Source: an archaeon
GTDB taxonomy: Archaea; Micrarchaeota; Micrarchaeia; Norongarragalinales; UBA97
NCBI GenBank assembly: GCA_020057405.1
Contig: JAGVFW010000013.1
Coordinates: 23,144-87,143 of the forward strand
Length of the DNA stretch: 64,000 nucleotides
Direction of reading: 5' to 3'
Under the pieces are notes generated by a model that saw only the letters and a list, made by a program, of their open reading frames with translations, ran no database searches and was not told the DNA's origin. The position numbers and the translations under genes were made by a program. Shown in pieces: positions 15,477-59,578 of the stretch (positions within the stretch are counted from its first letter, which is position 1; each line of letters opens with the position of its first letter).

Positions 15477-15478
15477 CC

Positions 15479-15791: not shown

Positions 15792-15881
15792 TAATACGAT
15801 AGCGTAATGCCTCCACGAGCTCTACAGCGGCAGCTCGTACGGATAAACCAATAAATACGGCTTTTCAAATAGCTTGATACG

Positions 15882-17360
15882 ATGAAAAGCTTGGAAACAC
15901 CATCGATTGCGCGTTTTCTATTGCTTGCTGCAATAATGATTTTGATTTCGCTTATGCTGACGAACTCGGAGTTTACAGGAAAAAGCACGGGCGGAGTTGT
16001 TTTGAATCTTCCGAATTTAAACCCTGGCGCCATAATTCAAACTACGCCGGGCCCCAGTCCCACCGCGTCGCCGCAACCCTCCCCGTCTCCCACGCCCCGA
16101 CCTACTCCTTCGCCCAGCCCCTCGACAACTCCGAGCCCGTCTCCAAGCGTTTCACCAAGCCCCAGTCCCTCTCCCACGCCAACTCCAAATCCGGACTTCG
16201 CGTGTGGGGTTAATGAAAGCGGAAAGACGAAGCGCTTCGTTTCATCCTGCGGCGACTTGAATCAGTCGAACAGCGCCTATTTCCTCACGCGAGACATCAT
16301 CAACTCTAACAACGAATACTGTTTCACCATCTCGGCCGACAACGTTGTTCTTGATTGCGGCAACCGCCGGATTGACGGCGACGGTTCCGGTTACGCGGCA
16401 ATCTTTGCCAAATCTAGGACTAATATAAGCGTAGTCAAGTGCAGCATGACTGACTGGTTCTACGGCGTGGAGGGAGAGTCTATCGGCAAAAGCGCCTTTT
16501 CCTGCAACAAATTCTCGAACCACATGTATGGCGGATTGCAATTCGACCGCGTTACGGACTCGGCAGCATTCAACAACACGTTCCTTTCTGGAGTTTATCA
16601 AGCGGCCGAATTAATGCGCTCTAACCGCAATTCATTTAATGAAAACAGCATTTTGAACGGCTTTGTCGGAGCACTGCTGACTCGGTCGTCACTCAATACG
16701 TTTTACAAAAACAAGTTCATCGGCCCCACCCAGCCCATAACCCTGATAGAAAACTCGAATGCGAACATCGTATCGGAAAACACGCTTAATGGCCCCGTAA
16801 ATCCAGGCATACTCGTCATCAATAGCCGCTCTAACACGCTCGAACTGAATAAGATCACTTCGGGAAGCGGAGCGCACTTGATTGACCTGCTTGTTGCAAA
16901 CGGTACCTCGATTCGAGACAACTATTTGGTACCTGCTCCTGGAGCGGCTGCAATCCGACTAGATCGATCCCAAAGCAATACATTGCTCAGAAACAAGATA
17001 GTGGGAAGCCAACTCTGTCCGGAGGGAATCTTGGTTGGCGAAGCAGGTGACGAGCAGCCTTCCAAGTTAAACACTATCGCCTATAACGACATTACGGGCT
17101 GCTTGTTCGGCCTCAACATCGATAACTCTGACGCGGACCGGATTATTTCAAACAAAATAGCCGGCTTCGGTATTAGCGGCATTTTCCTTACGCTGTCCAG
17201 CAACGAGTACTTGGCGTCAAATCGTGTTTGTGGCGCCAAATTTCCTAACGCCGACATTAGTGCGGAATCCTCTAGCGGCACGGGCAGGGAAAACACTTGC
17301 GACACTACTTCTTATTGGAACGACCAGGGACAAACCGGCTGCACATACCGGTGCAGCTAG
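15882..17360 (+). CDS. secreted right-handed parallel β-helix repeat protein (NosD/pectate-lyase-like) with a Pro/Ser/Thr-rich linker
   Basis: N-terminal TM/signal segment, then a PTPSPSP… linker, then repeated N/G/S-rich β-helix repeats (…NNTF…N.I.N…). Confidence 0.6.
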
Positions 17361-45364: not shown

Positions 45365-46399
45365 TTAATCGACGACTTTAGTCTCTAGCTTCTCGAGGTC
45401 GCAGAAGTCGGACGCGAAGTTGTAGGCCCCCGCGTTGATGAAAACAAGCGGTTGCCCGACTTTGGGCGCCTCTAGGTAAACGCGGTAGCGGAACAAGTCG
45501 ACCGAGCATGGCGTCACGCCCTTGACGACGTACGGCTCGCCATTGCCTGCAGGCAATTCACCCTCGATTAGTAGCTTTACCGGCACGATTACCGCGTCCA
45601 TGTCGGAATTGTAGACCGAGGCGTTGACGATGACGTTGTTCTCGTGGATGCCGATGATGGTCGTGACGAGCTTGCAGGCCGGCGCTGCGATGAAGCGGCC
45701 GGGCTCGATGACGAGCTTGATTCCGCGGCCGTTAGTCCACTGGCGGAACTCTTGGATTTTCTCAAGGATGCCTGGCAGGATGCCGGGGTTGGTGTTGGCG
45801 TAGTCTGAAGGCAGGCCACCGCCGATGTTGATGAGCTGGATTGCCTTTAGCGACTCTTCGGAGAGCAGGCTTGACACTTCGTAGACTAGGTTCCATTCAC
45901 TCACGTTCTGCGTTTTTCGGTGGAAGTGCACGCCAAGGGCGGCGATTGACGCGTGCCCGGTGAGTTCCTTTAGCCGCCTGTTGACAACATCGGCAGTCAT
46001 GCCGAAAACGAAGAACCTTTCGGTGCGAAGCGTGTGCTCGCGCAGCTTGATGCGCAGGTAAAGTGTGATTTTCTCGCTCCTTGAGGGCAGGTGCGCCATT
46101 AGCACGTCGAGGTCGGACTCGTTGTCGACAACAAAACTGCGGATGCCCATTTGCAGGAGGCCGTTGATTTGTTCTGGTGTCCAGGCTTGCGCGAGGAACA
46201 ACACGCGGCTCTTGTCTGCAAGGTGCTTTAGCTCGCCCTCAAAGTGCACGCTGAAGAGCGAATCCGTGTTTTCCTCGAGGATTGGCGTGACTTGCTGGTT
46301 TGTTTTCGAGCTATAGGAGACCGCGTCGCCAAGCTCGCGCACTTTGGCGTACTGCCTTAGCACGGTCTTTTTCGAGAGCTCAAAGTAAGGTTCTTCCAT
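45365..46399 (-). CDS. PLP-dependent decarboxylase of the Orn/DAP/Arg decarboxylase (alanine-racemase fold) family
   Basis: …YAKVRELGDAVSYSSKTN… has the PLP-Lys context. Barrel plus C-terminal β domain over ~344 aa. Confidence 0.65.
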   Translation of the reverse strand: MEEPYFELSKKTVLRQYAKVRELGDAVSYSSKTNQQVTPILEENTDSLFSVHFEGELKHLADKSRVLFLAQAWTPEQINGLLQMGIRSFVVDNESDLDVLMAHLPSRSEKITLYLRIKLREHTLRTERFFVFGMTADVVNRRLKELTGHASIAALGVHFHRKTQNVSEWNLVYEVSSLLSEESLKAIQLINIGGGLPSDYANTNPGILPGILEKIQEFRQWTNGRGIKLVIEPGRFIAAPACKLVTTIIGIHENNVIVNASVYNSDMDAVIVPVKLLIEGELPAGNGEPYVVKGVTPCSVDLFRYRVYLEAPKVGQPLVFINAGAYNFASDFCDLEKLETKVVD

Positions 46400-46405
46400 C
46401 GCAAA

Positions 46406-47359
46406 TCACTTCCTAAGCAGGTTCTCGGCGTCAAGCTCCTCAAACGCGCGAATCATCACGAGCGGGAAGGTGATTGTCACGTCGCCGATGACGGTCGCCA
46501 CGTCGCTCTCGTCCTTGACTTTGCCCCACGACTTGGCTTCATTCGTCGTCGCACCGCTCATTGAACCTGACGTCTTGTGCGCAGTTGTCATGTAGACGGC
46601 GTATTCCGCACCGCCGTTTAGGAGAGTGGCGAGGATGGCGTGGTGCTTTGAAATGCTGCCGCCGAGGGCGATGACGCCCTTCTTGTCGTCGTGGCTGGTC
46701 GCGTAGAGAATGTTTCCGAAGTCCTTGACGACATCAATGACGAAGTCAGGGTGATCCTGCTGGAAGAGATATAGGTGAAAGCCGAAAGCGCCGTCGGTCA
46801 CTGCGGGGCAGAAGATTGGCACATTGTTTTTCGCCGCTTGGTAGAGAATAGAGTCCTCATCGTTTAGCTGCAGGCCGATTTCGCGAAGCATTTCCGAGAC
46901 TGCCCAGCGCTTTTTCTTGGCGTAGAGGCCGGCGATGACTGGGCGCAGGAGGTTCTCGAAGTTCATGTAACTCTCGTTCTTCACAAGAATGTTGCCAACG
47001 CGGTTGATTCCCTGCTCGTGCAGCTCGACGTCGTCGCGCTCGAAAGTGCCTAACTGGAAGCGCTCGCCCTTGGCCTTCATTATGTCTTCTTCAATGCCCC
47101 CAACGGTGGTGATGACGATGTCCGCCATGCCAAGGCGAATGCATTGTGCAAAGAAGCCCCTGAGGCCGGAAGTGACCATGTTGGAAGTGAAAGTGAGGAA
47201 AATCTTTGCGCCGTCCTTCTTCATTTTCACGATGACGTCTGACGCTTTCTTGAGCTCGACGCTCTGGTAACCGATTTGCGAGTAGCCGGCGACCAGTTCT
47301 CGCACGGTAATGCCTTTTTTCCAAGTAAAGTCCTTAACGTAATCAACCATTGAAATCAC
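46406..47359 (-). CDS. dys: deoxyhypusine synthase
   Basis: Length and motifs (…GGSISKHHAIL…, …TTVGGIEEDI…) match DHS. Confidence 0.8.
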   Translation of the reverse strand: MISMVDYVKDFTWKKGITVRELVAGYSQIGYQSVELKKASDVIVKMKKDGAKIFLTFTSNMVTSGLRGFFAQCIRLGMADIVITTVGGIEEDIMKAKGERFQLGTFERDDVELHEQGINRVGNILVKNESYMNFENLLRPVIAGLYAKKKRWAVSEMLREIGLQLNDEDSILYQAAKNNVPIFCPAVTDGAFGFHLYLFQQDHPDFVIDVVKDFGNILYATSHDDKKGVIALGGSISKHHAILATLLNGGAEYAVYMTTAHKTSGSMSGATTNEAKSWGKVKDESDVATVIGDVTITFPLVMIRAFEELDAENLLRK

Positions 47360-47945: not shown

Positions 47946-48692
47946 ATGCCAGTAGAACGGGTCCAGAGCGGCATTTACGGCCTTGACGAGCTGATTACGG
48001 GAGGGTTCCCAAAGGGCCGCACCATCCTCATTAGCGGCGCGTGCGGCACGGGCAAGAGCATTTTGTGCAGCCAGTACCTCTACCGCGGGGCCGCCGAGTT
48101 CGACGAACCCGGAGTTTACGTCGCTTTTGACGAGCGGCCGGAAGAAATTAGGAGCGACATGGCGAACTTCGGCTGGGACATCGAAGCAATGGAAAAGAAA
48201 GGCAAGCTCGCGATTGTTGACGTTACTAGCGCCAAAGCCGGCGTGCCAAGCGAGGAAGACCACGCAATCCTCCCAGGCCAGCTTGACATTGACAAGATTC
48301 TCGTCGACGCGATTAGCGTGGCGCGCAACATTGGCGCGAAAAGAATGGTTTTCGACTCTATTCCCTCAATGGCCTTCCGCATGGACACCGTCCACGAAAT
48401 CCGCAAAGGCATCTTGAAGCTCGCCTACATTTCGGCCAAAGCCGGCTTGACGACGCTGATTACAACTGAAGCCGAGGAATCGCCTTCCGGCGTTCCAATC
48501 AAGTTTTCCCGCTACGAAGTCGAAGAATACGTTGCAGATGGCGTCGTCGTCCTAGGACTCTTCGGCGGCGGCCAAAGCGCCTTCCGCACACTCCACGTCC
48601 GCAAGATGCGAGGCACCAAACACGCCCTCGAACTCCACCCAATGGAAATAGGCGACAAGGGAATAACAGTCAAGAAGATAGGCGGAATTTAG
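47946..48692 (+). CDS. KaiC-like RecA-superfamily ATPase (single domain), copy 1
   Basis: …GIYGLDELITGGFPKGRTILISGACGTGKS… Walker A in a KaiC/RadA-like context. ~248 aa. Confidence 0.75.
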   Translation: MPVERVQSGIYGLDELITGGFPKGRTILISGACGTGKSILCSQYLYRGAAEFDEPGVYVAFDERPEEIRSDMANFGWDIEAMEKKGKLAIVDVTSAKAGVPSEEDHAILPGQLDIDKILVDAISVARNIGAKRMVFDSIPSMAFRMDTVHEIRKGILKLAYISAKAGLTTLITTEAEESPSGVPIKFSRYEVEEYVADGVVVLGLFGGGQSAFRTLHVRKMRGTKHALELHPMEIGDKGITVKKIGGI

Positions 48693-49225
48693 CTTCCACT
48701 GGTTTTTGGTTTCAAAATAAAAACACACTCTGCTTCCCCAGTACAAACACACTTGGTTTCTACGCATTCAATCTCTTTGTCATATATTGTCGTAAAAATA
48801 CCCGCAAAAAAACCCGCTATAAAATAATCCATAACTACCTTGGTCTTTTCGTTTTTTCGTAAATCATCTTTAGCTAATGAAGAAATTGCTCCGACGATTA
48901 TACTCCCATCTGGGTTTGAAGAAATTCGGTTTATTTTCGCAAGACCTTGTAACTCCACGATATTGCGCCATAACGCTACGCTCTCCATGCCCTTAACCTT
49001 AAAACGCTTATCTAAATCCTCGGAAAAATCCTTAGATGTCCTAAAACCCAAAGTGTACAGAAGTTTTCCAGATTTGGCACTGTTTCCTTCGTTAAGAAGA
49101 CTTCTCAAATGAGAGTGGATAGACGCAGGGTATAACAAATACGTAGAGTTGAAAATAGCCACATCGCCTTCAATAAAGCGCAATTGTTTTGCCATAAGCA
49201 ATTTTTTAAAAAAGCCGGATAACAA
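48689..49225 (-). CDS. V4R-domain (hydrocarbon/small-ligand binding, COG1719-like) protein
   Basis: C-terminal …ECVETKCVCTGEAECVFIL… is the V4R C-x-x-G…C-x-F pattern. The gene is AT-rich. Confidence 0.55.
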   Translation of the reverse strand: MLSGFFKKLLMAKQLRFIEGDVAIFNSTYLLYPASIHSHLRSLLNEGNSAKSGKLLYTLGFRTSKDFSEDLDKRFKVKGMESVALWRNIVELQGLAKINRISSNPDGSIIVGAISSLAKDDLRKNEKTKVVMDYFIAGFFAGIFTTIYDKEIECVETKCVCTGEAECVFILKPKTSGS

Positions 49226-49699
49226 CTAAGTCTCCCCACGTATTCGTTTTATTTTTTCCCACTTTTCAAAATTCAGTACTAAATCGGCTTCTTGGTCGCT
49301 AACAATCGTGCTAACCAAAACTTCTCGGATTTTGGGATTACGCACTAGTTTTGATATAGAAGCTGAAAGCGCTCGAGAAAACTTATCAGAACGCAATTTT
49401 GTAGTAAAATGCGCGGATATTGCTACTGGAACACCCGTCATAATCTCAATAAAGCCGCCTTTTTCGAAGAGAAACCGCTTGTAAAACTTTTCGCCAACGA
49501 TATCTTCACCAATGAAACAGGTTTTTTCTCCGAAGTTTCTCTCCAGTGACTTAACGAATTCAAACAAAGCACGATCAGTTTCAGATTCTGAATTTTGAGT
49601 CGCCAGCGCTACGAGATCCGCAGAGTCCGGCGTATCTGAACCAAAAGGTAGCGCTTCGGGAAGATCGATTAAAGTCACATACGAGTGTCTTAGTTTCAT
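49226..49699 (-). CDS. hypothetical protein (157 aa), co-oriented and contiguous with the V4R gene
   Basis: ORF only. AT-rich. Confidence 0.35.
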   Translation of the reverse strand: MKLRHSYVTLIDLPEALPFGSDTPDSADLVALATQNSESETDRALFEFVKSLERNFGEKTCFIGEDIVGEKFYKRFLFEKGGFIEIMTGVPVAISAHFTTKLRSDKFSRALSASISKLVRNPKIREVLVSTIVSDQEADLVLNFEKWEKIKRIRGET

Positions 49700-49872
49700 C
49701 CGGTACCTCCCACTAACACATTACGCATACTGTAACGCTATTTAAAAACACTAATCTACCCGCATCTCAAAAGACACAGCAGACTTAAAAAGAGACCTAG
49801 CCTACGGGTATATACGCTAAACGCAGGTAGAAGGAAAGAAACTAACCGATAGTAAAAAAACTGGGGTAGATT

Positions 49873-51171
49873 TTGTTGAAAAACTTGCAAGTTGGCATTG
49901 GCTTTTCGGAAGTAGCAGATTCAAAAAAGGCGGCTAAGGCGGCCTCTGAACAAGCGCTGAAAACACTTAAGAAAAAGCCAACAATCACCTACGTTTTCTT
50001 CGCAGGGGAATACGATCCTAAAGAAATAAGCAGGGGGTTAGTTGAAGCACTTGGCGATAGTGAATTTGTCGGGGGTTCCGGTGACGCGGTATTTTTTGAG
50101 GACAAGATATACCGGACCGGAATAGTGGTTGCGGCAATATACAGCGAATATCTCCACGTAGGAATCTCCTCAATCGAAGGAATATCAAAAGACCCCCACG
50201 GACTAGCTAGGAAAGTAACTGCAGAAGCAATGAAGAAAATTGCAATAGACAAGTATGTAGATCCATACTTACAGTTTACTAGAATGAGAAATAGCAGCAT
50301 AAAGTGGATGATTAAAAAACCATCATTCCACATTACAGTTTTTGCGAAAGGTATGAAATTGCCTCAGATGGGAGAAGAAACCAAAATATTACAAGGAATA
50401 ACTAGGGAAATGGGATTCAATGTTCCGATTTGGGGGGGCAGTTTCGGAGTACACCTCGAAAAGCTATTCGAACAAAAACCATACGACATTCACCTCTTAC
50501 ATTCAGGTAAAATACTCACAGACGGCTTAATCGTAGTAGTGAATTCAACAAGTCTACTCTACGGACTATCCTTAGCGCATGGTTCGCAACGGACAAACAA
50601 AATAGGCTTCATTTCTGGCGTTACGGGGGGCGGGTACGTGATAACGGGAATTTCCGGTAAAAACCCCATAGACTGGTATTGTGAAAACCTAAACATACCT
50701 CGAAAAGAGTTTTTAAAAAATTCCATAGTTATTACTCAGAAAAACCCATTAGGAATTCCTGACAACTATGGCGGATTTATTATTAGGGCGGGCGGAGTAC
50801 CCGCTGGAGAAAATCTAGCCTTTACTGCAACGTTCGAAGAAGGTTGGCCGGTATACATCATGGATTCGAGCATAAGCAATATGGCCACGGCACCGGGTAA
50901 AGTAATCGAAGACCTGCGTGCAAGTACCAACGAAGCAACTCCGGCTCTAGCTCTAGCAATCATCTGCGCATCATGCAGAATCGTCACAGGAGAAAAAGGC
51001 GTCGCCGGAGAACTCAAAGAATTAAAGAAAAAGCTCGGCGGGGCGCCAATCGTAGGTTTCTCGTCATTTACTGAAATTGGAGCTAAAGAGGGCGTACCCA
51101 CTACGGTACAGCACGAAGCTACAACCCTACTAACAATTTACGATAAATTGTTGCACGAAGTTAGGGATTGA
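49873..51171 (+). CDS. FIST-domain (FIST_N + FIST_C) putative small-ligand sensor protein
   Basis: N-terminal …PTITYVFFAGEYD… and C-terminal …PIVGFSSFTEIG… match the FIST N and C signatures. Confidence 0.6.
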   Translation: MLKNLQVGIGFSEVADSKKAAKAASEQALKTLKKKPTITYVFFAGEYDPKEISRGLVEALGDSEFVGGSGDAVFFEDKIYRTGIVVAAIYSEYLHVGISSIEGISKDPHGLARKVTAEAMKKIAIDKYVDPYLQFTRMRNSSIKWMIKKPSFHITVFAKGMKLPQMGEETKILQGITREMGFNVPIWGGSFGVHLEKLFEQKPYDIHLLHSGKILTDGLIVVVNSTSLLYGLSLAHGSQRTNKIGFISGVTGGGYVITGISGKNPIDWYCENLNIPRKEFLKNSIVITQKNPLGIPDNYGGFIIRAGGVPAGENLAFTATFEEGWPVYIMDSSISNMATAPGKVIEDLRASTNEATPALALAIICASCRIVTGEKGVAGELKELKKKLGGAPIVGFSSFTEIGAKEGVPTTVQHEATTLLTIYDKLLHEVRD

Positions 51172-51182
51172 GTTGAACCTGC

Positions 51183-52730
51183 GTGACACCTATTCGAAAC
51201 GCAACAATTTTAGTGCTGGGCGGAGCAGGACAAGTAGGCTTCGAATTTTGTTCACAAATCCTATCCAAAAATCCACTGAAGCTCATTATTTGCGATATAA
51301 ATGAGAAAAAAGTTAAGTCTGCCATTAGTAGATTAAATTCAAAAAGTCGTACGACCGCAAAAATCGGAGAATGGGGAGATATTTTTTCAGATAAACCGAC
51401 AGCGAAGTCTGCGCTCATTCAAATAAAAAGCAGCATTGTCGAACTGACGAACCGAACTGGCGTGCTGGCGGCTAGCGATGCCTCAGATACCTTCCTTTAC
51501 AAGCTGATATGCAAATACAAGCCCGACATCCTTGTTGATGCGGTCAATACAGCTACTGCACTGGCTTACAAAGATAGTCGCGAATCAAAAACGCGCGAAT
51601 CTACGCAACAAAACGACCTACCAGAACCGGTGCCGATTATGCAATTAATTCGACACACGCAAGTGTTGTTTCAGGCGTTCAGAAAAGCACAAACTAAGGA
51701 ATATATAAAAATAGGAACTGGCGGAACCGGCGGCCTTGGTTTCACTTTGCCATATACACACGGTGAAAATGAAGTTCCGTCAAAACTCCTAATGAGTAAA
51801 TCTGCCGTTGCAGGCGCGCAAACCATGCTTTTGTGGGTTTTGGCAAGAACTCCAATGATGCCAATAATAAAGGAAATTAAAGTTACGGCACTCATAGGAT
51901 GGAGAGAAATTGGGCGGGGTGAATTCACCATCGACTCCGAACCAATCGCACTCTATGATTGCCCAATTGAAAAGAGCCTAACTATCAGCGATGCGCTAAA
52001 AAAACACAATTCAATCAGATTAAATAAAAATCTACACGGGACGTGGATTGACACTGGAGAAAATGGAATATTTACTAAAGATATGTTCGCGGCTATTACT
52101 TCGAGAAACAACATGGAGCTAATTACTCCAGCAGAAATAGTCAAAATAATCATAGACGAAATTGAAGGCAAGCACACCGGGAAAGACACAATATCGGCCA
52201 TGGATAATGCAGTACTTGGCCCTACACTAATCGGAAGCGGAATGCGGCAAGTCGCTATAGATCGAATGAAGGATGACGACGAAGTTGTGGCAAGTATACC
52301 GACGCTAGGCCCCCTAACGGCAAAAATATTGTGGGAAGCCGCATTACTGAAAACCTCTTTCGAGAATATCGATCAAGTAATAAAAGAAAATGAAAAACAT
52401 ATATCGGAAAGGACTTTTGAAAAAATAAGCAGAGATCAAACGCTGAGAGCTAAAATAATATCCATAGGAATACCCATCCTCTTACCTTCTGGTAAGCTTC
52501 TTCGCGGTCCAACTATATCAATTCCAGATCAGAGTCGAGTATCCTCAAACCTGCGAGATGTCGAGACTTGGGCCGCCACTGGCTGGGTAGACCTTAGGCC
52601 TAAAAACTGGCTGCTTTGGAAAACCTGGCTCCGCGACTATCGCACATCTAATAACAATTCATTCAATATCGGCGAGATTTGCGGATGGATTTTTGCGCAT
52701 AAGCTTGGCGGAATGAGGATAAAACGGTGA
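51183..52730 (+). CDS. Rossmann-fold NAD(P)-binding oxidoreductase of uncertain family (515 aa)
   Basis: N-terminal ILVLGGAGQVGFEF…LIICDINEKK… (GxGxxG plus an acidic residue after β2) and …PDILVDAVN…. The remainder is unassigned. Confidence 0.5.
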   Translation: MTPIRNATILVLGGAGQVGFEFCSQILSKNPLKLIICDINEKKVKSAISRLNSKSRTTAKIGEWGDIFSDKPTAKSALIQIKSSIVELTNRTGVLAASDASDTFLYKLICKYKPDILVDAVNTATALAYKDSRESKTRESTQQNDLPEPVPIMQLIRHTQVLFQAFRKAQTKEYIKIGTGGTGGLGFTLPYTHGENEVPSKLLMSKSAVAGAQTMLLWVLARTPMMPIIKEIKVTALIGWREIGRGEFTIDSEPIALYDCPIEKSLTISDALKKHNSIRLNKNLHGTWIDTGENGIFTKDMFAAITSRNNMELITPAEIVKIIIDEIEGKHTGKDTISAMDNAVLGPTLIGSGMRQVAIDRMKDDDEVVASIPTLGPLTAKILWEAALLKTSFENIDQVIKENEKHISERTFEKISRDQTLRAKIISIGIPILLPSGKLLRGPTISIPDQSRVSSNLRDVETWAATGWVDLRPKNWLLWKTWLRDYRTSNNNSFNIGEICGWIFAHKLGGMRIKR

Positions 52731-53884
52731 TAACTAACTTCGAGGAGCTTTTAACAACATCCTCACGCACATTAGACCCGAAACAGATTTCACCAGCCGT
52801 ATGGGCTTCAAAAAATTGGGAAAAACTAGATAGGAAAAGTACTGAAACGACCCTTCTTCCGTTTATTAAGTTTCAAATTAATCGCGCTGGCAAAGCAATG
52901 CCAGATATTTACTCGCCATACACGAAAAAAAATACGCCAATAAACGAGTTTGAAGATTTTTTTAATTTACCTGCACTAGTAAAAGACACGGGAACCCACT
53001 CCATCGGATTTAGAGAAAAGGTCAAACTTAATCCGTATATACTATTACCAAAAGATACGAGTTCAGCTACGGTCGTCTATAAATCAGGCGGTACTCGGGG
53101 TACAGCCACTCCCACGTTTCTAACCACTTGGGATCACGAAGTTGAAGCGCTTTCCTTAAAAAAGTGCTTCGAGTATATGGGAATAAAGAAAGATGTGGTT
53201 GCGCTTAATTCTTACAATCCGACACATAAAGGCGGACAACTGATTACCAATGCACTCTTAGCTCTGGGCGTAAAAGTTATACCTAGGCGTACAACCGATA
53301 CGCCAACAGAAATGATTAACACGATAAAAACCTACGGCGTATCAATGTTAGCAACAGTACAAGGCCCACTTAGTGAAGATGATAATGTTCGAAAAGGCGC
53401 AGGGATAGATTTCCTATCACTTATTGAAGCGGGACAAGATGTACTCGAACAACACTTAGACTTGTTGTTCATTACCGGCTATTCGCTCATTCCGGAAGTT
53501 ATTGCTTGGTCAGAAAGTAATAAAAAAAACCTCGCTACGTGTTTAGGTTCTTCGGAAGCAATTCCCCAAGCAACTAGCACAGTAAAAGGTACAAAGTGCA
53601 AATACAACAACCTGCACCTGATTAACGGCCCCCACTACCTCGAAATCGTAAAGCTGGAATCTGGAACACTCGTTCCAGTAAAACGGGGAGAAACTGGCCT
53701 GCTACTATACACCACCATTGCAAGAGACGGTACGATATACATCCGATACGCTCCGGGTGACGCGGCAACACTAACGGCTTACGGTGGAGAATGCGACTGT
53801 GGAATACGTACACCCATCATTTCAAATATTCGAAGAATAGATATACCTGAAGATACTATTGCCGCCGGCTGTTGCATAGGGTAG
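52727..53884 (+). CDS. adenylate-forming acyl-protein synthetase-like enzyme (LuxE / PaaK / F390-synthetase superfamily)
   Basis: …VYKSGGTRGTATPTF… is P-loop-like [ST]SG[ST]xG. …YAPGDAATL… is present. The C-terminus ends …GCCIG, as with the LuxE acyl-Cys near its C-terminus. Confidence 0.5.
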   Translation: MITNFEELLTTSSRTLDPKQISPAVWASKNWEKLDRKSTETTLLPFIKFQINRAGKAMPDIYSPYTKKNTPINEFEDFFNLPALVKDTGTHSIGFREKVKLNPYILLPKDTSSATVVYKSGGTRGTATPTFLTTWDHEVEALSLKKCFEYMGIKKDVVALNSYNPTHKGGQLITNALLALGVKVIPRRTTDTPTEMINTIKTYGVSMLATVQGPLSEDDNVRKGAGIDFLSLIEAGQDVLEQHLDLLFITGYSLIPEVIAWSESNKKNLATCLGSSEAIPQATSTVKGTKCKYNNLHLINGPHYLEIVKLESGTLVPVKRGETGLLLYTTIARDGTIYIRYAPGDAATLTAYGGECDCGIRTPIISNIRRIDIPEDTIAAGCCIG

Positions 53885-55311
53885 AACAAATGACCCACCT
53901 AAAATTTAACAACTATATAGGCGGAAAGGAAGTTCTACTTTCAGGACAAACTTTTACAGTTGAAAGCAGCATATATCCCGACTATCAGTTTCTAGCTCCT
54001 GAAGCGGGACTATTTGATATTAAAACGGCAATTTCTAAGGCGCGTACATCTGTAAAAGACTGCCACGCACTTACCTTTAGCGAACGAATAGAAATACTTG
54101 AACGAGCGGCGGCTTCTTTTTCGCCAACTGCAACTGATTTCGAGTTCGCTGTCAAAACCACAGGCATGCCCATATCAAATGTTAGGTCTTTTTCAGAAGA
54201 TATTCGAAATATTTACCGCAATGTACCGATTGCTATAGAAAAGCACATAGGCCGGCTGGGCGACCGGTTCGGACATGACCTTAGACACTCAGAAGGCACC
54301 GTGCATTTTGAACCAATAAATGGAATAGTATATGCAATTACGCCAGGTAACGATATTCGCGTAACCGCATTCATTGCAAGTTGGCTAGTAGCCTTAGGAA
54401 TACCCGGAATATTTAAATGCTCAAAAAACGACCTCGCGTTTGCTAATAAAACTTTACAAAAGTTAGTCGAGGCGGGCTATCCGGAAGGCGGTCTTAACCT
54501 GCTTTGTTGGGATACACAAAAAAAGGAAAATGCTAAATTAAATTTCGAATTGGTAGATTCTTCGAAAGTTGTTTGGGCATATGGAGCCGATTCGACCGTT
54601 GATTTCATGCTTCGATTTGAAACAAAATCTGAAAACCAAGTTTTAGATCACTTTTCGGACAAAACCATACTAAGACATGCAACCGGAAGAACCGCAGCTA
54701 TATCCTCTCCGAAAACAGACATCGAAAAAGTATCTGAACGCGCGACTACCTCCGCTTTAACTTGGCCGATTGGTTGTAACTCGCTAAAAGCACTATTTAA
54801 CGCATCCAACAAAAACACCGAGGTTGTTAGCGCCCTAACGGAAAAGTTCGAGCAACTTGCTAAACATACCGGCGACCCCATGAAAAACACTACGAAGATA
54901 GGCTTCACGGAACCAAAACTACTAGCCCAGGTGTGGAACAGAATAAATGACCTCAAAAAAACCGGTCAGCTTAGCTTGCTTACTGGAGAAAAAATTAGTG
55001 AAAGACAATGCACGCCGCTACTCTTAGAAACTCTCGACCTTAATTCGGAATTCCTAAACACTGAATTTTCTACTTATCTACTAACTATCAAAAACTGCTC
55101 CGGGTTTAGTGAAGCGATAGATGAGGTCAATGTAACTTCAGGTGCGAATAGACGACTCGTAGTAACTGTTTTTTCTTCTGAAAATGAAAAACTCGGAAGA
55201 ATTCACGCGCACCGAATAAATATGAACACCATAACAACCGATCTCGACCTATTATTTCAAGAAGGAAACGACTACTTTAGCAAACTGACTACGCCCCAAC
55301 TTCATAAATGA
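53872..55311 (+). CDS. LuxC-like acyl-CoA/acyl-protein reductase (divergent ALDH superfamily)
   Basis: Segment-by-segment similarity to the LuxC pattern. AITPGNDIRVTAFIASWLVAL matches LLAGNVPLSGIMSILRAIL. GIFKCSKNDLAFAN matches CIIKTSSTDPFTAN. VVWAYGAD matches VIVAWGGPD. ERQC matches QRAC (catalytic Cys). Confidence 0.6.
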   Translation: MHRVEQMTHLKFNNYIGGKEVLLSGQTFTVESSIYPDYQFLAPEAGLFDIKTAISKARTSVKDCHALTFSERIEILERAAASFSPTATDFEFAVKTTGMPISNVRSFSEDIRNIYRNVPIAIEKHIGRLGDRFGHDLRHSEGTVHFEPINGIVYAITPGNDIRVTAFIASWLVALGIPGIFKCSKNDLAFANKTLQKLVEAGYPEGGLNLLCWDTQKKENAKLNFELVDSSKVVWAYGADSTVDFMLRFETKSENQVLDHFSDKTILRHATGRTAAISSPKTDIEKVSERATTSALTWPIGCNSLKALFNASNKNTEVVSALTEKFEQLAKHTGDPMKNTTKIGFTEPKLLAQVWNRINDLKKTGQLSLLTGEKISERQCTPLLLETLDLNSEFLNTEFSTYLLTIKNCSGFSEAIDEVNVTSGANRRLVVTVFSSENEKLGRIHAHRINMNTITTDLDLLFQEGNDYFSKLTTPQLHK

Positions 55312-55325
55312 ACGAATAGAACGCA

Positions 55326-56099
55326 TTAAAGCTTCAAAACGTCTTCATCGGAAACAAACTCGATTCCGCTCTTTGAAAATCTATACGATAACGCCTTCCG
55401 TTCATGATCAGTATACCTCATTTTTCTAACTTGCAAAGATCGAAATTCGGCAGTACCTATTCCAAAAAAACTCAGGAAAATTACACCATCGGCAAGAAAT
55501 TCTGAAATTCCGTCCGAACTCATACCTTTTCCTCGCTCTGGCAATTCTGAAGTGAGAAAAATTGTCGCACCCAACGCCCTTAGACTAGAAATAACCGTAG
55601 CTAACATTCGCTTAGTCATAGTTTTCTCCGAAGTACTCCTAGGTGGAATTTTATCTAAACTTCGTGAAGGCACCCCTCCGCGCTTAAGCAATACTTCCTT
55701 TGCAAAATCAGATACCAAGGCAAACTCAGAAAAAGTACTCATAGAGTCTAAAACCAGCCGTTGCGGAGAAAACTGACGAATCGCAGTGAAAATTTCGCTC
55801 AAAAAAGACTCGTCCTTTAATATATCTACATAAACTATTTTGAGCAAGTTTTTATCTACCCAAAGATTCAAATCCCACCCGTATTGGGCAGCTTGCTTAT
55901 TCAATTCTTCAAACGTCTGTTCGGTTGAAACGTACATACTTCGCTCATTATTTGCTATCCCCTGAAGTAAGAAATGCAAACATAAGGTACTCTTACCAGT
56001 TCCGGCCCCCCCCGAAATTAATACTACGTTCCCCTTAGGAATGCCCCCACTAATGGCCTCATCCAAGCCGATAATGCCAGTTTTAACTCTCTCAATCAT
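55326..56099 (-). CDS. KaiC-like RecA-superfamily ATPase (single domain), copy 2; ~35% identical to copy 1
   Basis: …GIIGLDEAISGGIPKGNVVLISGGAGTGKS… plus a Walker B-like VLDSMS. Confidence 0.75.
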   Translation of the reverse strand: MIERVKTGIIGLDEAISGGIPKGNVVLISGGAGTGKSTLCLHFLLQGIANNERSMYVSTEQTFEELNKQAAQYGWDLNLWVDKNLLKIVYVDILKDESFLSEIFTAIRQFSPQRLVLDSMSTFSEFALVSDFAKEVLLKRGGVPSRSLDKIPPRSTSEKTMTKRMLATVISSLRALGATIFLTSELPERGKGMSSDGISEFLADGVIFLSFFGIGTAEFRSLQVRKMRYTDHERKALSYRFSKSGIEFVSDEDVLKL

Positions 56100-56120: not shown

Positions 56121-57011
56121 TTAAAAAAGCATATCGGATCGGGTAGCTTTACCCCGTTTGAATCCACCTTTAGTCGGGCCTACCTCAAACACGCATTTTT
56201 GGTCGCCTTTTGCTATGCACTTGGTTTCTTTTGCTTCGATTGCTGGGTCACCATACATTACGGCGAATCCTCCCGCTAGGCAGCCGCGCAGAAAATCGTC
56301 CACAGGCTCCTTGCTTTTTCCGAAACGATTAAGGTATTCGACTGCGAAGGGAGAATAATCTACTGTGACGAAAGCGGTTTTATTTGCCGTATCTATCTGC
56401 TCGATGTTTAGACTCCCCCAGCCGACTATTGAGAGCGTGTCAATGCCGTGCTGGAGTTCTACATCCAAGTCGCCACGGGTTACGCCCGTTCTACGCATTT
56501 CAGAATACCAACTGACGCTCATATCTCTTACCGTTTTGTAAAGAAGGCCGGGCTTCTTTTTGAGTTCAATGTGCCAAAGTAGGTACTGATACATCGGAAT
56601 CATGCAAATCTTGTGCCCAAATAAGTAAAGCTCATCCTTCGACAGGGTGAGATTTCCACTAAGCAAAAGATGTTTGAGCAGCGACAATGCCCTAAATGCA
56701 GAAAACATCCGGCCCTTGGCCGGAATGGCGAAAAAAGTTTTTGAATCGGAAGACGCCTGTATTGTCGAAATTTCTTGCGCCAAATTTCCCAACCAAACGC
56801 GATTAATAGAATAACCGGCATCATCTTTCACTAGCATTCCGGCGGCGGCCATTTCGCCGAGCGCCTTGTGTACGCCTTGGTAGGTAGCTTTGGTGCCTTC
56901 CTTTTGCACTGCCTTGAACGTTTCTTTTGCCGTTAGGGGCGCTTGCTCGGAGAGCGCGTTAAGCGTGGCGCCTTTCACACCGCCCAATGCAGAGCCTAGG
57001 ACTGAACTCAT
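56121..57011 (-). CDS. winged-helix plus V4R-domain putative ligand-responsive regulator (start moved to MSSVLGS…)
   Basis: The N-terminal wHTH (…PLTAKETFKAV…ATYQGVHKALGEM…GYSIN…) is shared with the three upstream paralogues. The C-terminus has …KCIAKGDQKCVFEV…, a V4R pattern. Confidence 0.55.
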   Translation of the reverse strand: MSSVLGSALGGVKGATLNALSEQAPLTAKETFKAVQKEGTKATYQGVHKALGEMAAAGMLVKDDAGYSINRVWLGNLAQEISTIQASSDSKTFFAIPAKGRMFSAFRALSLLKHLLLSGNLTLSKDELYLFGHKICMIPMYQYLLWHIELKKKPGLLYKTVRDMSVSWYSEMRRTGVTRGDLDVELQHGIDTLSIVGWGSLNIEQIDTANKTAFVTVDYSPFAVEYLNRFGKSKEPVDDFLRGCLAGGFAVMYGDPAIEAKETKCIAKGDQKCVFEVGPTKGGFKRGKATRSDMLF

Positions 57012-57835
57012 TTTCTCCCTCCGCACAGTGCAATCGTTTCTTTCTTTAGTTGGTCGGCGAGGGCTTGGTTGCGGATGACTGCAACTGGCACTCGCGCCTT
57101 TTTCATGAAAACCGCCTCGTAGAAGCTGTCGACATCGAAGTCGCTCATTTTGGAGGCGGAGTTGTAGACTTTGTCGAGTGCTTTCTTGAACTCGAGCGGG
57201 TAGTAGACGCGCACAACGAAGTCCTTGTAGACGACGGTATCCGTGCTCGTCGCTTCCTTCACGCCAATCCGGTGCTTCAGCTTGGAGTTCTTGCGCCAGT
57301 AGTCCGCGCACCAGCGGTCAAGCGGCGTGTCGGCAGGCGTTATCGAGTAGCTGTCGGACACGCTTACCAGCTCCTTCATGCGCAAGTAAGTCTCGCGGTT
57401 GAGGAACAGGGGAACCCAGAAGTGGCACCACTGCAGCGCCAGTACCTTGTCCTTTGGGTCAAAAACCTTCTGCGCGAAAGAGACAAGGAAATCGTCAACC
57501 TCGGCAACAGAATCAAAAAAAAGCACCGACTGGCCGGCGGGCATGCTTAAACCGGTCTTCGAATAGGAAGACTTGAGCTCGTCAGAAAACCGTGAGAGTC
57601 CATCAATCCAATCAAAGGAAAGAGAGTAACCCTCTGGAGAACGGGAAATCACGCCCTCCAAAGAAAGCTCGCCTAAAGACTTGTGGATTGCCTGATAAGT
57701 AAGGTGCGTTCCGTTCTTCGCAATTGCGGAATGGATTTGCTTGGCAGAGAGCGGCCACTTGGCAGAGAGAACACTGATAATCGCGCTTTTCGCGTCCGCT
57801 TTTCCTCGACTGCCTAGAGTAGGTAATTCAATCAT
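57008..57835 (-). CDS. winged-helix regulator-family paralogue 2, unknown C-terminal domain (start moved to MIELPTLG…)
   Basis: wHTH …PLSAKQIHSAIAKNGTHLTYQAIHKSLGEL…GYSLS…. C-terminal …DFVVRVYYPLEFKK…RVPVAVIRNQALADQL…. Confidence 0.5.
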   Translation of the reverse strand: MIELPTLGSRGKADAKSAIISVLSAKWPLSAKQIHSAIAKNGTHLTYQAIHKSLGELSLEGVISRSPEGYSLSFDWIDGLSRFSDELKSSYSKTGLSMPAGQSVLFFDSVAEVDDFLVSFAQKVFDPKDKVLALQWCHFWVPLFLNRETYLRMKELVSVSDSYSITPADTPLDRWCADYWRKNSKLKHRIGVKEATSTDTVVYKDFVVRVYYPLEFKKALDKVYNSASKMSDFDVDSFYEAVFMKKARVPVAVIRNQALADQLKKETIALCGGRK

Positions 57836-58683
57836 TTCCTTCCCCTCCTGAACTCGGCGAGCGTTTCGTCGATGATTTGTTTTGCCATTGCCTTGTTGCG
57901 GGTGATGACTACTGGGACTTTCATGCGGGCGCCGATTCCGACGAGCACGTAGTCGTAGACGACACGCATTACGCTGGCCGCTGACTGGGACGAGAAAGTC
58001 AGGTGCATGAACTTTTTGAATGCGGGGGGCCAGTAGATGTTGATTACGTAGTCGTTGAAGGCGAGCACGTCGCACGCTTCGGCAACGTCAACACCGGCAA
58101 GCCATTTGAGGGCTATTGGACCCTCCAAGTACTTCAGGCAGTAAATGTCCCCAGGTGAGTTGCCTCGGCAGAGAGCGTAATTGCCCTTGCTTTTCTTGAA
58201 TCTGGCCATTTTCTTGTATTGCTCCTCGCCAACCATTTGCGCCGCCCAAGCGAACCCGCAGTGCTGCACAATCACGCTCTTGCCTGCGGCGATTGGAGGC
58301 ATCTCATCAATGACCCAATAGGGGGCGGAGATTATGCCCGTAAAAGTGTAGGAAACCGAAGAGTTGGGAGGAATTTCCAAGAGACGAGGAGGCTCTCCGC
58401 CCGAATATCGCTTGCTAGCGTCATTCCACCAAGCTTTCTGCGCTTCGACCCACCCTGGCGAAAGCGAATATCCTTCCGGCAAGCGCGAGATAACGCCATC
58501 GGCCGACAACTCGCCCAAGACCTTGTGCACCGCTTGGTAAGTAAGTGGCTTGCCGCCGTCCTTTGAAACTACAGCGTGCAACTGCTTTGCAAACAAGGGC
58601 CATTTGACTGCTAGCGCGTTGATCACGCGCGAGCGGGCGTCATGCCTGCCGCTTGCGAGCAGTCCCGCGTTAAGTTCAGCCAC
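57832..58683 (-). CDS. winged-helix regulator-family paralogue 3
   Basis: Same wHTH (…PLFAKQLHAVVSKDGGKPLTYQAVHKVLGEL…) and the same C-terminal motifs (…DYVINIYWPPAFKK…KVPVVITRNKAMAKQI…). Confidence 0.5.
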   Translation of the reverse strand: MAELNAGLLASGRHDARSRVINALAVKWPLFAKQLHAVVSKDGGKPLTYQAVHKVLGELSADGVISRLPEGYSLSPGWVEAQKAWWNDASKRYSGGEPPRLLEIPPNSSVSYTFTGIISAPYWVIDEMPPIAAGKSVIVQHCGFAWAAQMVGEEQYKKMARFKKSKGNYALCRGNSPGDIYCLKYLEGPIALKWLAGVDVAEACDVLAFNDYVINIYWPPAFKKFMHLTFSSQSAASVMRVVYDYVLVGIGARMKVPVVITRNKAMAKQIIDETLAEFRRGRK

Positions 58684-59578
58684 TGCGCTTGCCTCCGGTT
58701 TTGAAGTGCGTTGCCAGCTTCCTTCTCATTTCTCTTGCAAGCGCGGCGTTTCGGGTGATGACTAGCTTGATTTTGAATTTCTTTTGGAAGCAAATCTTGT
58801 AGAGGGAATTGAGGTCCATGATTTTTTTTATCATGTTCTTACTGAACCACGCCATTACTTCGGGGGGCGTGTAAATCTGGACGATAAAATCGCCGAAAAC
58901 CACGGAGTCTACCTTGTTTGCAGGGTCGGTGCCCATAACGTAGGGCGTGCCGAAACCACGCTTCCAAAACTCTAGAGTGAACCTATCGAGAAAGAAGTTC
59001 GTCGTGCACACGAGCCTTGTGCGGGCCGAGGAAGTAAGCTGCCTGATTTCATCATACTCTTTCTTGCTAACAATAAAGACCGGCCAGGCGCCGTACATCA
59101 CGATGAAAACATCGCCCTCGACCCTGTGCTTGAGAGTATACTCCGCCATCTCGGAAAGAACCCAGTAAAAGGGCGCGGCCAGACTCTCGTTAAACTCCAC
59201 AGTTGTGCTGGAATCAGGCGCAATGTCGGCAAACGAAATGCGGTCAGGCGAGACGTGACGCACTTCCGCCTCCTGCAAAAACTTCTTAGAACGCGAAATC
59301 CAGTCAAGAGACAAACGATAATTGCTAGAAAAATTGCGCTCAAGCACGCCCTCAGAAGCAAGGCGCCGAACCACCTTGTGGACGGCCTGGTAAGTCAACT
59401 GCTTGCCGCCGTCAGATAAAAGAAGCGAGTGAACATGCTTTGCGGACAACGGGGACTTTCTAGCCAGTGCCGAGATTACACGCGAGCGGGCGTCACGGCG
59501 CCCCGACGCTAGGACACTTTCCGAAAGCCCCCGATCTAAGTTGCCAACCAAACCCCAAACCACCACTCCGCAGGACAC
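58676..59578 (-). CDS. winged-helix regulator-family paralogue 4
   Basis: …PLSAKHVHSLLLSDGGKQLTYQAVHKVVRRL…, …DFIVQIYTPPEV…, …KLVITRNAALAREM…. Confidence 0.5.
   Translation of the reverse strand: MSCGVVVWGLVGNLDRGLSESVLASGRRDARSRVISALARKSPLSAKHVHSLLLSDGGKQLTYQAVHKVVRRLASEGVLERNFSSNYRLSLDWISRSKKFLQEAEVRHVSPDRISFADIAPDSSTTVEFNESLAAPFYWVLSEMAEYTLKHRVEGDVFIVMYGAWPVFIVSKKEYDEIRQLTSSARTRLVCTTNFFLDRFTLEFWKRGFGTPYVMGTDPANKVDSVVFGDFIVQIYTPPEVMAWFSKNMIKKIMDLNSLYKICFQKKFKIKLVITRNAALAREMRRKLATHFKTGGKRSG

What the first reader, a model, noticed from the sequence alone, without database searches (positions are those of the whole stretch)
52727..55311. LuxE-like plus LuxC-like pair, a carboxylic-acid-reductase module in an archaeon
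Gene 53872-55311 matches the LuxC acyl-CoA reductase pattern across at least four spaced segments, including the catalytic-Cys context (ERQC against QRAC). The upstream overlapping gene has an adenylate-forming P-loop and a C-terminal Cys-Cys, like LuxE acyl-protein synthetase. Together these predict activation of a carboxylic acid and NADPH-dependent reduction to an aldehyde. The upstream Rossmann enzyme (51183-52730) could then reduce, oxidise or reductively aminate the aldehyde. The substrate and product are unknown. This would be a lipid-, polyamine- or signal-like metabolite pathway outside bioluminescence.
Basis: partly seen in the sequence, partly recalled or inferred. Interest (0 to 1): 0.75.

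Follow-up and report, generated by a model that had tools for sequence, protein, structure and literature searches.

The report
LuxCE-like acid reductase pair, independent origin
Two adjacent archaeal genes encode an acid-activating enzyme that has swapped its CoA-binding lid for a short cysteine-bearing tail, and a non-hydrolysing aldehyde-dehydrogenase-like partner. Together they probably turn a carboxylic acid into an aldehyde the way the bioluminescence LuxE/LuxC pair does, yet they belong to neither Lux family and appear not to have been described.

Summary

The architecture nevertheless matches what defines LuxE/LuxC function. The ligase stops just after the ANL hinge Arg370, so it has no lid. 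It ends in a disordered tail carrying Cys382, invariant in 41/41 independent loci. The partner keeps catalytic Cys302 (33/33), which aligns with the LuxC acylation Cys, and has no general-base Glu.

An ALDH-family gene follows the ligase in all 39 informative loci from archaea and bacteria.

In archaea the pair sits in a conserved operon with FIST, V4R, KaiC-like and a 157-aa unknown protein, on a low-GC island. The upstream Rossmann gene (PF27054) is an accessory found in one subclade only.

Best reading: an independently evolved two-protein, Cys-to-Cys acyl-relay carboxylate reductase. The substrate is unknown and possibly amino-acid-derived.

The parts
52727..53884 (+). Lid-less PaaK-type adenylating enzyme (385 aa), the proposed acyl-protein synthetase. 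It has P-loop S120-G125 (nt 53084-53101), invariant K168, K223, E277 and D345, and hinge R370 (nt 53834-53836). It ends in a 15-residue tail carrying invariant Cys382 (nt 53870-53872).
   Evidence: PaaK/F390/DVU_1553-type hits, no LuxE. (residue conservation). (pLDDT 90.5, tail residues 376-385 below 50). (PaaK fold; profile covers 4r1l residues 6-327 of 436, so the lid is absent)..
53872..55311 (+). Non-hydrolytic ALDH-superfamily protein (479 aa from TTG 53872, or 473 aa from ATG 53890), the proposed acyl-thioester reductase. Catalytic Cys302 is at nt 54775-54777. N160 is the oxyanion Asn. K182 and K185 are cofactor-site residues. His269 (nt 54676-54678) sits where the general-base Glu would be. 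E398 is also conserved.
51183..52730 (+). Rossmann-fold protein of family PF27054 (515 aa), an accessory gene. Its stop overlaps the ligase start by 4 nt. It is linked to the pair only in the closest archaeal subclade.
   Evidence: only the N-terminal NAD(P)-binding signature is recognised. (more than 2,400 homologues, mostly bacterial 'short-chain dehydrogenase', PF27054). (present in L001, L052-L055 and L074, absent elsewhere). (unrelated context in bacteria).
49873..51171 (+). FIST_N + FIST_C protein (432 aa), the first gene of the co-directional FIST-Rossmann-ligase-ALDH string (gaps of 11, -4 and +5/-13 nt).
   Evidence: FIST 64 bits, FIST_C 47 bits. (lies upstream of the ligase, usually immediately, in 24 of the 25 archaeal-type loci that contain it; downstream only in L065).
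49226..49699 (-). Conserved 157-aa protein of unknown function, present in the archaeal-type loci with enough flank.
   Evidence: pairwise E 1e-55 to 1e-7 between loci.. No Pfam, NCBIfam or PDB match.
48689..49225 (-). V4R-domain protein (178 aa), a predicted small-molecule-binding protein.
   Evidence: V4R 39.9 bits. (conserved in archaeal-type loci; co-directional with the pair in L004 and L007).
47946..48692 (+). Single-domain KaiC-like ATPase (248 aa) with an intact Walker A motif.
   Evidence: PF06745, 228 bits..
55326..56099 (-). Second single-domain KaiC-like ATPase (257 aa), convergent with the ALDH gene. It marks the end of the low-GC island.
   Evidence: PF06745, 165 bits. (module GC 0.433 against 0.54 for the rest of the window).

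Best explanation
The two genes encode a two-protein carboxylic-acid reductase that works by a protein-to-protein acyl relay.

Step 1 (inferred from conserved motifs): the lid-less PaaK-type enzyme adenylates a carboxylic acid with ATP.

Step 2 (inferred from architecture): CoA is not the acceptor. Instead the thiol of the enzyme's own invariant Cys382 attacks the acyl-AMP and forms an acyl-S-enzyme. Cys382 sits on a flexible 15-residue tail that begins at the hinge Arg370, exactly where the ANL lid domain would start.

Step 3 (inferred): the tail delivers the acyl group to the invariant Cys302 of the ALDH-fold partner. The partner has no general-base Glu, so it cannot hydrolyse the thioester.

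Step 4 (inferred): NAD(P)H reduces the thioacyl-enzyme to a free aldehyde. NADPH is probable, because the residue equivalent to ALDH Glu195 is never Glu and is Lys in the archaeal-type proteins.

This is the LuxE/LuxC logic, reached independently from a PaaK-like ligase and an ordinary-looking ALDH.

In archaea the pair is co-transcribed with a FIST protein, and in one subclade with a PF27054 Rossmann enzyme. It travels with V4R, KaiC-like and 157-aa proteins, which most likely sense a ligand or control the pathway.

The substrate is unknown. Aminotransferases and SHMT genes recur next to the pair, which suggests an amino-acid-derived acid, or an aldehyde that is subsequently transaminated or condensed.
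For: Shown by computation:
- The ligase family has intact adenylation motifs: P-loop, E277, D345 and R370, each in 41/41 loci.
- It lacks the lid. The profile aligns to residues 6-327 of the 436-residue BT_0428, and to columns 14-347 of 454 in lidded PaaKs.
- It ends with an invariant Cys three to five residues from the C-terminus in more than 130 homologues. The tail is modelled as disordered while the rest is confident.
- The ALDH partner keeps Cys302 (33/33), Asn160, Lys182 and Glu398, but no member has Glu at the general-base site. It is His in 29 and Phe or Tyr in 4; LuxC has Phe there.
- Cys302 aligns with the LuxC acylation Cys.
- Gene linkage is complete: 39/39 informative loci plus the window, including bacterial loci that lack every other module gene.

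From the literature: LuxE is defined by this same architecture. It has a PaaK-like core and no C-terminal subdomain. A flexible C-terminal motif of about 20 aa carries the acylated Cys, which transfers the acyl group to a Cys of LuxC. LuxC lacks the hydrolytic residues and uses NADPH (PMC6279958; PMC9157457).
Against: - There is no biochemical evidence, and no complex model could be computed.
- Sequence-level kinship to LuxE is negligible (0/60 Pfam hits; hhalign E 4e-3 over 90 columns).
- The LuxE catalytic Lys238 loop has no Lys at the aligned position. Which invariant Lys (K168 or K223) replaces the missing A10 Lys is therefore unknown.
- Unlike LuxC, the partner retains the oxyanion Asn and Glu399-equivalent typical of oxidative ALDHs. 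It is structurally closest to NADP-dependent oxidative GapN-type enzymes, so the direction of the reaction is not settled.
- Cys382 could in principle be a metal ligand together with the nearby conserved C291, C356 and C358.
- The substrate is not identified.
Confidence: 0.55

Rival explanations
1. The same two-protein acyl relay runs in the oxidative, energy-conserving direction. The ALDH-like enzyme oxidises an aldehyde with NAD(P)+ to a thioacyl-Cys302. The acyl group passes to Cys382 of the ligase. The ligase then runs backwards (acyl-S-enzyme + AMP + PPi gives acid + ATP), so ATP is made by substrate-level phosphorylation.
For: The partner retains the oxyanion Asn160 and Glu398 and is structurally closest to oxidative NADP-dependent ALDHs such as GapN. 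Loss of the hydrolytic Glu fits conservation of the thioester equally well. Neighbouring aminotransferases could supply aldehydes or oxo-acids from amino acids or amines. The closest relatives are in DPANN-type archaea, which are generally held to have small genomes and limited energy metabolism (own knowledge, not tested here).
Against: No lid-less ANL enzyme is known to work in reverse. The only characterised system with this architecture (LuxCE) is reductive. The non-Glu, often Lys, residue at the 195-equivalent position suggests NADPH, which is more typical of reductive roles. No PPi-generating or aldehyde-generating enzyme is consistently linked.
Confidence: 0.12
2. This is a CoA-dependent two-step pathway with no protein-to-protein relay. 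The ligase makes a free acyl-CoA (or only an acyl-AMP), and the ALDH-like enzyme is a CoA-acylating aldehyde dehydrogenase or acyl-CoA reductase. Cys382 is structural, redox-regulatory or a metal ligand.
For: LuxC itself also accepts acyl-CoA. The ALDH family aligns with the CoA-acylating EutE at E 7e-6, better than with LuxC. The conserved C291, C356 and C358 near the tail could form a metal site together with C382.
Confidence: 0.13
3. This is an ordinary catabolic pair: a phenylacetate-CoA-ligase-like enzyme plus a hydrolytic aldehyde dehydrogenase (aldehyde to acid to acyl-CoA), as in aromatic-compound degradation.
For: The top database labels are PaaK-like and aldehyde dehydrogenase. E. 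coli has feaB and paaK in one region.
Against: There is no lid domain, and scores fall far below the PaaK equivalog cutoffs (39 bits against 700). There is no general-base Glu, so thioester hydrolysis is not expected. None of the other paa genes is nearby.
Confidence: 0.05
4. The enzymes are mainly signalling components. The module is a KaiC/FIST/V4R sensory system, and the ligase/ALDH pair makes or destroys a small-molecule signal, or covalently marks a protein, rather than carrying metabolic flux.
For: The pair is co-transcribed with FIST and linked to V4R, KaiC-like ATPases and wHTH-V4R regulators in every archaeal-type locus. KaiC-like ATPases have been proposed as archaeal signalling hubs (Makarova et al. 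2017, cited; the paper itself could not be read).
Against: Bacterial members keep the pair without any of these genes. So the pair has a function of its own, and the sensory genes are a lineage-specific addition. This reading is also compatible with the best explanation rather than exclusive of it.
Confidence: 0.1

Closest known systems
LuxE/LuxC fatty-acid reductase of luminous bacteria (PF04443 / PF05893; PDB 7XC6)
   Same: Both are two separate proteins encoded side by side. The activating enzyme has a PaaK-like N-terminal core, no C-terminal lid, and a short flexible tail after the hinge Arg carrying an invariant Gly-Cys. The partner has the ALDH fold, its catalytic Cys is in the same aligned position, and it has no general-base Glu. 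NADPH use is likely.
   Different: - There is no sequence-family membership: 0/60 hit LuxE, and hhalign gives E 4e-3, while each family is far closer to lidded PaaK.
- The tail motif is R-x-D-x8-9-G-C-(C/A)-x-G at the very C-terminus, not TRxxKGCxLS followed by about 10 more residues.
- There is no Lys at the LuxE K238 position.
- The partner keeps the oxyanion Asn and Glu399-equivalent that LuxC has lost, and is closer to canonical ALDHs.
- There is no LuxD or luciferase.
- The hosts are archaea and non-luminous bacteria, and the context is FIST/V4R/KaiC.
Phenylacetate-CoA ligase (PaaK) subfamily of ANL enzymes (BT_0428 4R1L, PaaK1 2Y27, ClxA 9S3L)
   Same: These are the best sequence and fold matches for the N-terminal domain (profile E 2.4e-15 to 4R1L; TM about 0.7). 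The P-loop, A5, A7 and A8 motifs and the CxCG motif are shared.
   Different: The whole C-terminal lid of about 110 residues (A10 Lys, CoA-binding conformation) is missing and replaced by the Cys tail. The family-specific invariant motifs 'NPTHKGG' and K223-G are not seen in PaaK.
DVU_1553-family lid-less AMP-dependent ligases (NCBIfam NF045666) and EhpF (3HGU)
   Same: These are other lid-less members of the PaaK branch. DVU_1553 is the best NCBIfam hit.
   Different: Scores are far below the cutoff (47 bits against 300). The match ends at the hinge, so the Cys tail is not part of that model. They have different gene partners.
Canonical and CoA-acylating aldehyde dehydrogenases (PF00171; GapN, FeaB/AldA/GabD, EutE)
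   Different: The general-base Glu268 is replaced (invariant His269 in archaeal-type proteins, Phe or Tyr in bacterial-type). Identity is only 15-19%. The gene is obligately paired with the lid-less ligase.
Type I carboxylic acid reductases (CAR: A-PCP-R) and alpha-aminoadipate reductase Lys2
   Same: The proposed net chemistry is the same: acid + ATP + NADPH gives aldehyde through an enzyme-bound thioester.
   Different: There is no carrier-protein domain, no phosphopantetheine arm and no SDR-type R domain. The thioester carrier is a protein Cys and the reductase has an ALDH fold.

Membership tests
LuxE acyl-protein synthetase (PF04443) | Sequence matches the family profile above threshold | tested here: not met
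   0 of 60 family members hit PF04443 even at E<=10. An HMM built from 9 authentic LuxE sequences gives at most 11.6 bits. hhalign gives E 4e-3 over 90 columns, against 2e-49 to lidded PaaK.
LuxE acyl-protein synthetase (PF04443) | PaaK-like adenylating core with the C-terminal lid subdomain missing | tested here: met
   The profile aligns to 4R1L residues 6-327 of 436 and to lidded-PaaK columns 14-347 of 454. The protein ends 15 residues after hinge R370. The fold is PaaK-like, TM about 0.7.
LuxE acyl-protein synthetase (PF04443) | Short flexible C-terminal motif with an invariant acyl-accepting Cys (LuxE: TRxxKGCxLS) | tested here: inconclusive
   An invariant Gly-Cys sits on a tail modelled as disordered (41/41 loci). 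The motif and spacing differ from authentic LuxE tails. Acylation itself was not testable.
LuxE acyl-protein synthetase (PF04443) | Loop lysine (LuxE K238 in GGGWK) that replaces the lid A10 Lys | tested here: not met
   The aligned loop ('ITGYSLIPE') has no Lys. Other invariant lysines, K168 and K223, exist, but their position in space could not be examined.
LuxE acyl-protein synthetase (PF04443) | ATP-dependent self-acylation and transfer to the reductase | not testable with these tools
   This needs enzyme assays and intact-protein mass spectrometry.
LuxC acyl-protein/acyl-CoA reductase (PF05893) | Sequence matches the family profile as the best family | tested here: not met
LuxC acyl-protein/acyl-CoA reductase (PF05893) | ALDH fold with the acylated catalytic Cys at the conserved position | tested here: met
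LuxC acyl-protein/acyl-CoA reductase (PF05893) | Loss of the hydrolytic machinery (two Glu and one Asn, per PMC9157457) | tested here: inconclusive
   The general-base Glu is absent in all members, replaced by His, Phe or Tyr. The oxyanion Asn160 (30/33) and Glu398 (31/33) are retained, unlike in LuxC.
LuxC acyl-protein/acyl-CoA reductase (PF05893) | NADPH-dependent reduction of an acyl-thioester to an aldehyde | not testable with these tools
   There is only an inference. The residue at the Glu195-equivalent position is never Glu and is Lys in 18/33.
Phenylacetate-CoA ligase PaaK | Two-domain ANL enzyme with a C-terminal lid carrying the catalytic Lys; forms acyl-CoA | tested here: not met
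   The lid is absent. NCBIfam PaaK models score 18-39 bits against cutoffs of 646-700.
Aldehyde dehydrogenase superfamily (PF00171) | Profile match above threshold and the ALDH fold | tested here: met
Aldehyde dehydrogenase superfamily (PF00171) | General-base Glu268 for thioester hydrolysis (hydrolytic ALDHs) | tested here: not met
   There is no Glu at or next to the aligned position in any of 33 sequences.
Type I carboxylic acid reductase (A-PCP-R) | Phosphopantetheinyl carrier domain and SDR-type reductase domain | tested here: not met
   No PP-binding or NAD_binding_4 domain is found in either protein.

The most novel reading that the evidence does not exclude
In DPANN-type archaea this is a new kind of sensory-metabolic unit. 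A KaiC-like ATPase, a FIST protein, a V4R ligand-binding protein and a 157-aa protein would form a complex with, or gate, a protein-tethered thioester relay. That relay either produces a reactive aldehyde or amine signal, or runs backwards to make ATP from aldehyde oxidation. The reverse case would be a previously unknown form of substrate-level phosphorylation, using a lid-less ANL enzyme in reverse.
Probability: 0.15. Interest if true: 0.85.

Novelty: new variant of a known kind. Interest (0 to 1): 0.62.

Why it matters
LuxCE is the only characterised carboxylate reductase that uses a protein cysteine, rather than CoA or a phosphopantetheine arm, to carry the acyl group. If this reading is right, the same solution arose a second time, from a different ligase and a different ALDH lineage.

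That would define a recognisable signature: a lid-less ANL enzyme ending in Gly-Cys, followed by an ALDH that lacks the general-base Glu. The signature could be used to annotate many proteins now labelled 'PaaK-like' or 'aldehyde dehydrogenase family protein'.

It would also give biocatalysis a compact two-protein reductase that needs no phosphopantetheinylation.

Finally, it would attach a concrete enzymatic output to the poorly understood FIST, V4R and KaiC-like proteins of archaea, making their function testable.

Tried and rejected
- **Pfam and NCBIfam membership in LuxE/LuxC.** Rejected for LuxE and marginal for LuxC.
Rejected. C380 occurs in 2/20 homologues.
- **The Rossmann gene as a core pathway step.** Rejected as core. 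It is linked only in the window, L001, L052-L055 and L074, and sits in unrelated contexts in bacteria. The name of its Pfam family (PF27054, 'Beta_methylindole_red_C') could not be traced in the literature.
- **Literature on a FIST/V4R/KaiC association with these enzymes.** Nothing was found. The key KaiC paper (PMC5717392) is not held.
- **PDB searches with the FIST protein and the 157-aa protein.** Uninformative.
- **Looking up the window's own contig through P0001.** Not on record. The host is known only as an archaeon, from deoxyhypusine synthase, RFA and SRP54.
- **Geometry of K168, K223 and the Cys cluster.** Model coordinates are not exposed, so this could not be measured.
- **Complex prediction.** Not available.

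Full report
**What is in the sequence.** On the + strand, four ORFs follow each other almost without gaps:
- FIST protein, 49873-51171
- Rossmann-fold protein, 51183-52730
- ANL-type protein, 52727-53884
- ALDH-type protein, 53872-55311

The Rossmann stop overlaps the ligase start by 4 nt. The ALDH gene starts either at TTG 53872 (13-nt overlap) or at ATG 53890 (5-nt gap, the start used by NCBI and JGI).

On the other strand, or flanking, lie a KaiC-like ATPase (47946-48692), a V4R protein (48689-49225, -), a 157-aa ORF (49226-49699, -), a second KaiC-like ATPase (55326-56099, -) and a wHTH-V4R protein (56121-57311, -). The block 47946-56099 has GC 0.433 against 0.54 for the rest of the window. 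The host is an archaeon: it has deoxyhypusine synthase, replication factor A and SRP54.

The upstream protein does not hit Pfam LuxE. It gives a weak AMP-binding hit and sub-threshold hits to the DVU_1553, PaaK, F390-synthetase and FlxY NCBIfam models. None of 60 family members hits LuxE, even at E<=10, while 45 hit AMP-binding.

The downstream protein scores 65.4 bits on Aldedh and 21.1 bits on LuxC, where the cutoff is 21. All 20 family members hit Aldedh, and 11 hit LuxC weakly.

**Comparison with authentic Lux proteins.** I fetched 41 lux operons with a LuxA query and extracted nine LuxC and nine LuxE sequences. Profile-profile comparison gave the following:

| Comparison | E-value | Aligned columns |
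|---|---|---|
| Window ligase family vs lidded PaaK-like enzymes | 2e-49 | 326 |
| LuxE vs the same PaaK set | 3e-16 | 287 |
| Window ligase family vs LuxE | 4e-3 | 90 |
| Window ALDH family vs E. coli FeaB/AldA/GabD | 9e-12 | 421 |
| Window ALDH family vs EutE | 7e-6 | 304 |
| Window ALDH family vs LuxC | 4e-4 | 403 |
| LuxC vs canonical ALDH | 8e-4 | 260 |

One caveat applies. The PaaK reference set came from a search seeded with the window family, which favours that pairing. Even so, LuxE is still far closer to PaaK than to the window family.

Conclusion: neither protein belongs to the Lux families. Each is a separate offshoot of its superfamily.

**Why the mechanism nevertheless looks like LuxCE.** Two papers define what makes LuxE and LuxC work (PMC6279958; PMC9157457):
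- That subdomain is replaced by a flexible motif of about 20 residues. Its conserved Cys is acylated and then enters the LuxC active site.
- LuxC has the ALDH fold with an acyl-accepting Cys, lacks the hydrolytic residues and uses NADPH.

The window family reproduces these points:
- **No lid.** The family profile aligns to residues 6-327 of the 436-residue BT_0428. The protein ends 15 residues after the hinge Arg370.
- **A Cys-bearing tail.** The last residues are G-C-(C/A/V/M)-x-G. The Cys is invariant in more than 130 homologues and in 41/41 loci of an independent sample. Residues 376-385 are the only low-confidence segment of the model. Authentic LuxE tails read RR-x-x-T-R-x-x-K-G-C-A-L-S, so both have a hinge Arg followed by Gly-Cys on a short tail, though the motifs differ.
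- **Intact adenylation motifs.** The P-loop, E277, D345 and R370 are invariant, and so are H167-K168 and K223.
- **A non-hydrolytic partner.** Cys302 is invariant and aligns with both the ALDH catalytic Cys and the LuxC acylation Cys. No member has Glu at the general-base site. It is His269 in archaeal-type proteins, and Phe or Tyr, as in LuxC, in bacterial-type ones. The residue equivalent to ALDH Glu195 is never Glu, which is compatible with NADPH.

There are also differences from LuxCE. No Lys lies at the position of LuxE K238. The partner keeps the oxyanion Asn and the Glu399 equivalent that LuxC has lost.

The 'ERQC' Cys is residue 380. It occurs only in the window protein and one homologue (2/20) and lies about 80 residues past the catalytic position.

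**Gene linkage.** I examined 45 loci encoding the ligase family, from archaeal and bacterial contigs. Every one of the 39 with at least about 400 bp downstream has an ALDH-family ORF downstream on the same strand. The six without one end less than 450 bp after the ligase.

Bacterial-type loci (for example a Parachlamydiales contig, L008) have the pair without FIST, V4R, KaiC or the 157-aa gene. So the pair is the functional core.

Archaeal-type loci add the other genes:
- FIST lies upstream of the ligase.
- V4R, a KaiC-like ATPase and the 157-aa family are also present.
- In L004 and L007, the 146-aa protein, FIST, ligase, ALDH and V4R form one tightly spaced co-directional string.

The family is small: 37 cluster representatives at E<=1e-30 among 1.84 billion. 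It has no curated Pfam or NCBIfam model.

**The Rossmann gene.** It belongs to PF27054, a large and mostly bacterial family annotated only as 'short-chain dehydrogenase'. It is linked to the pair in the window and six close loci (L001, L052-L055, L074). It is absent from the other archaeal loci and sits in unrelated contexts in bacteria. It is an accessory gene whose role is open.

**Substrate.** Nothing identifies the substrate. The only recurrent hint is the presence of PLP enzymes next to the pair:
- A class-IV aminotransferase lies between the two genes in L059, L060 and L063.
- Class-I/II aminotransferases occur in L002, L006, L077 and L082.
- A class-III aminotransferase occurs in L001.
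- SHMT occurs in L006, L008 and L082.

I infer, with low confidence, that the acid is amino-acid-derived, or that the aldehyde is transaminated or condensed afterwards.

The most likely reading is an independently evolved two-protein carboxylate reductase with a Cys-to-Cys acyl relay (confidence about 0.55). Steps 1 to 4 of the mechanism are all inferred from sequence, model and linkage. None has been shown biochemically.

The direction of the reaction and the role of the FIST, V4R and KaiC genes remain open. I found no description of this family or of its gene neighbourhood in the searchable literature.

Noticed in passing
window 47946-56099; also about 12000-16000: The whole KaiC/V4R/157-aa/FIST/Rossmann/ligase/ALDH/KaiC block is a low-GC island (0.433 against 0.54). 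Its closest homologues are in DPANN-type archaea, which suggests horizontal acquisition. A second low-GC stretch (0.42-0.46) lies at about 12-16 kb.
   Followed up: partly
window 56121-59578 (- strand): Four tandem paralogous genes have an N-terminal winged-helix motif, and the first also has a C-terminal V4R domain. The mechanical ORF calls overlap by hundreds of bases, so the upstream starts are probably wrong.
   Followed up: no
window 49226-49699 (-); L001 9487-9963; L002 9484-9966; L004 4959-5399; L007 6182-6622: A conserved protein family of 146-160 aa has no Pfam, NCBIfam or PDB match. It is present in archaeal-type loci with enough flank and absent from the bacterial-type loci that lack FIST.
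   Followed up: partly
proteins P0141-P0225: A wider set of lid-less PaaK-like proteins (about 350-395 aa) ends in '...R-x-x-D...G-G-C-(A/E/Q/R)-x-x'. It includes fusions to an O-methyltransferase (P0181, P0202). A separate group of 450-490 aa ends in 'G-S-C-A-x-D-A-L'. None is in a curated family. The terminal Gly-Cys signature may mark many more self-acylating ANL enzymes.
   Followed up: partly
L059 2489-3460; L060 8799-9710; L063 1442-2365; L002 6689-7843; L006 11426-12859; L077; L082; L008 12469-13764: Aminotransferases of classes IV, I/II and III, and SHMT genes, recur beside or between the ligase and ALDH genes in both archaeal and bacterial loci.
   Followed up: partly
L064 9086-10096; L068 3757-4704: A polytopic membrane protein of about 300 aa with no Pfam hit is inserted between the ligase and ALDH genes in two archaeal loci.
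   Followed up: no
window 53872-53892: The 'HRV' conserved in the N-terminal extensions of several ALDH homologues comes from the ligase's conserved 'CCIG-stop' codons read in another frame. It is not evidence for the upstream start.
   Followed up: yes
window 45365-47359 (- strand): Deoxyhypusine synthase and a PLP-dependent decarboxylase of the Orn/DAP type lie just upstream of the island. They look like housekeeping genes and are not conserved with the module elsewhere.
   Followed up: partly
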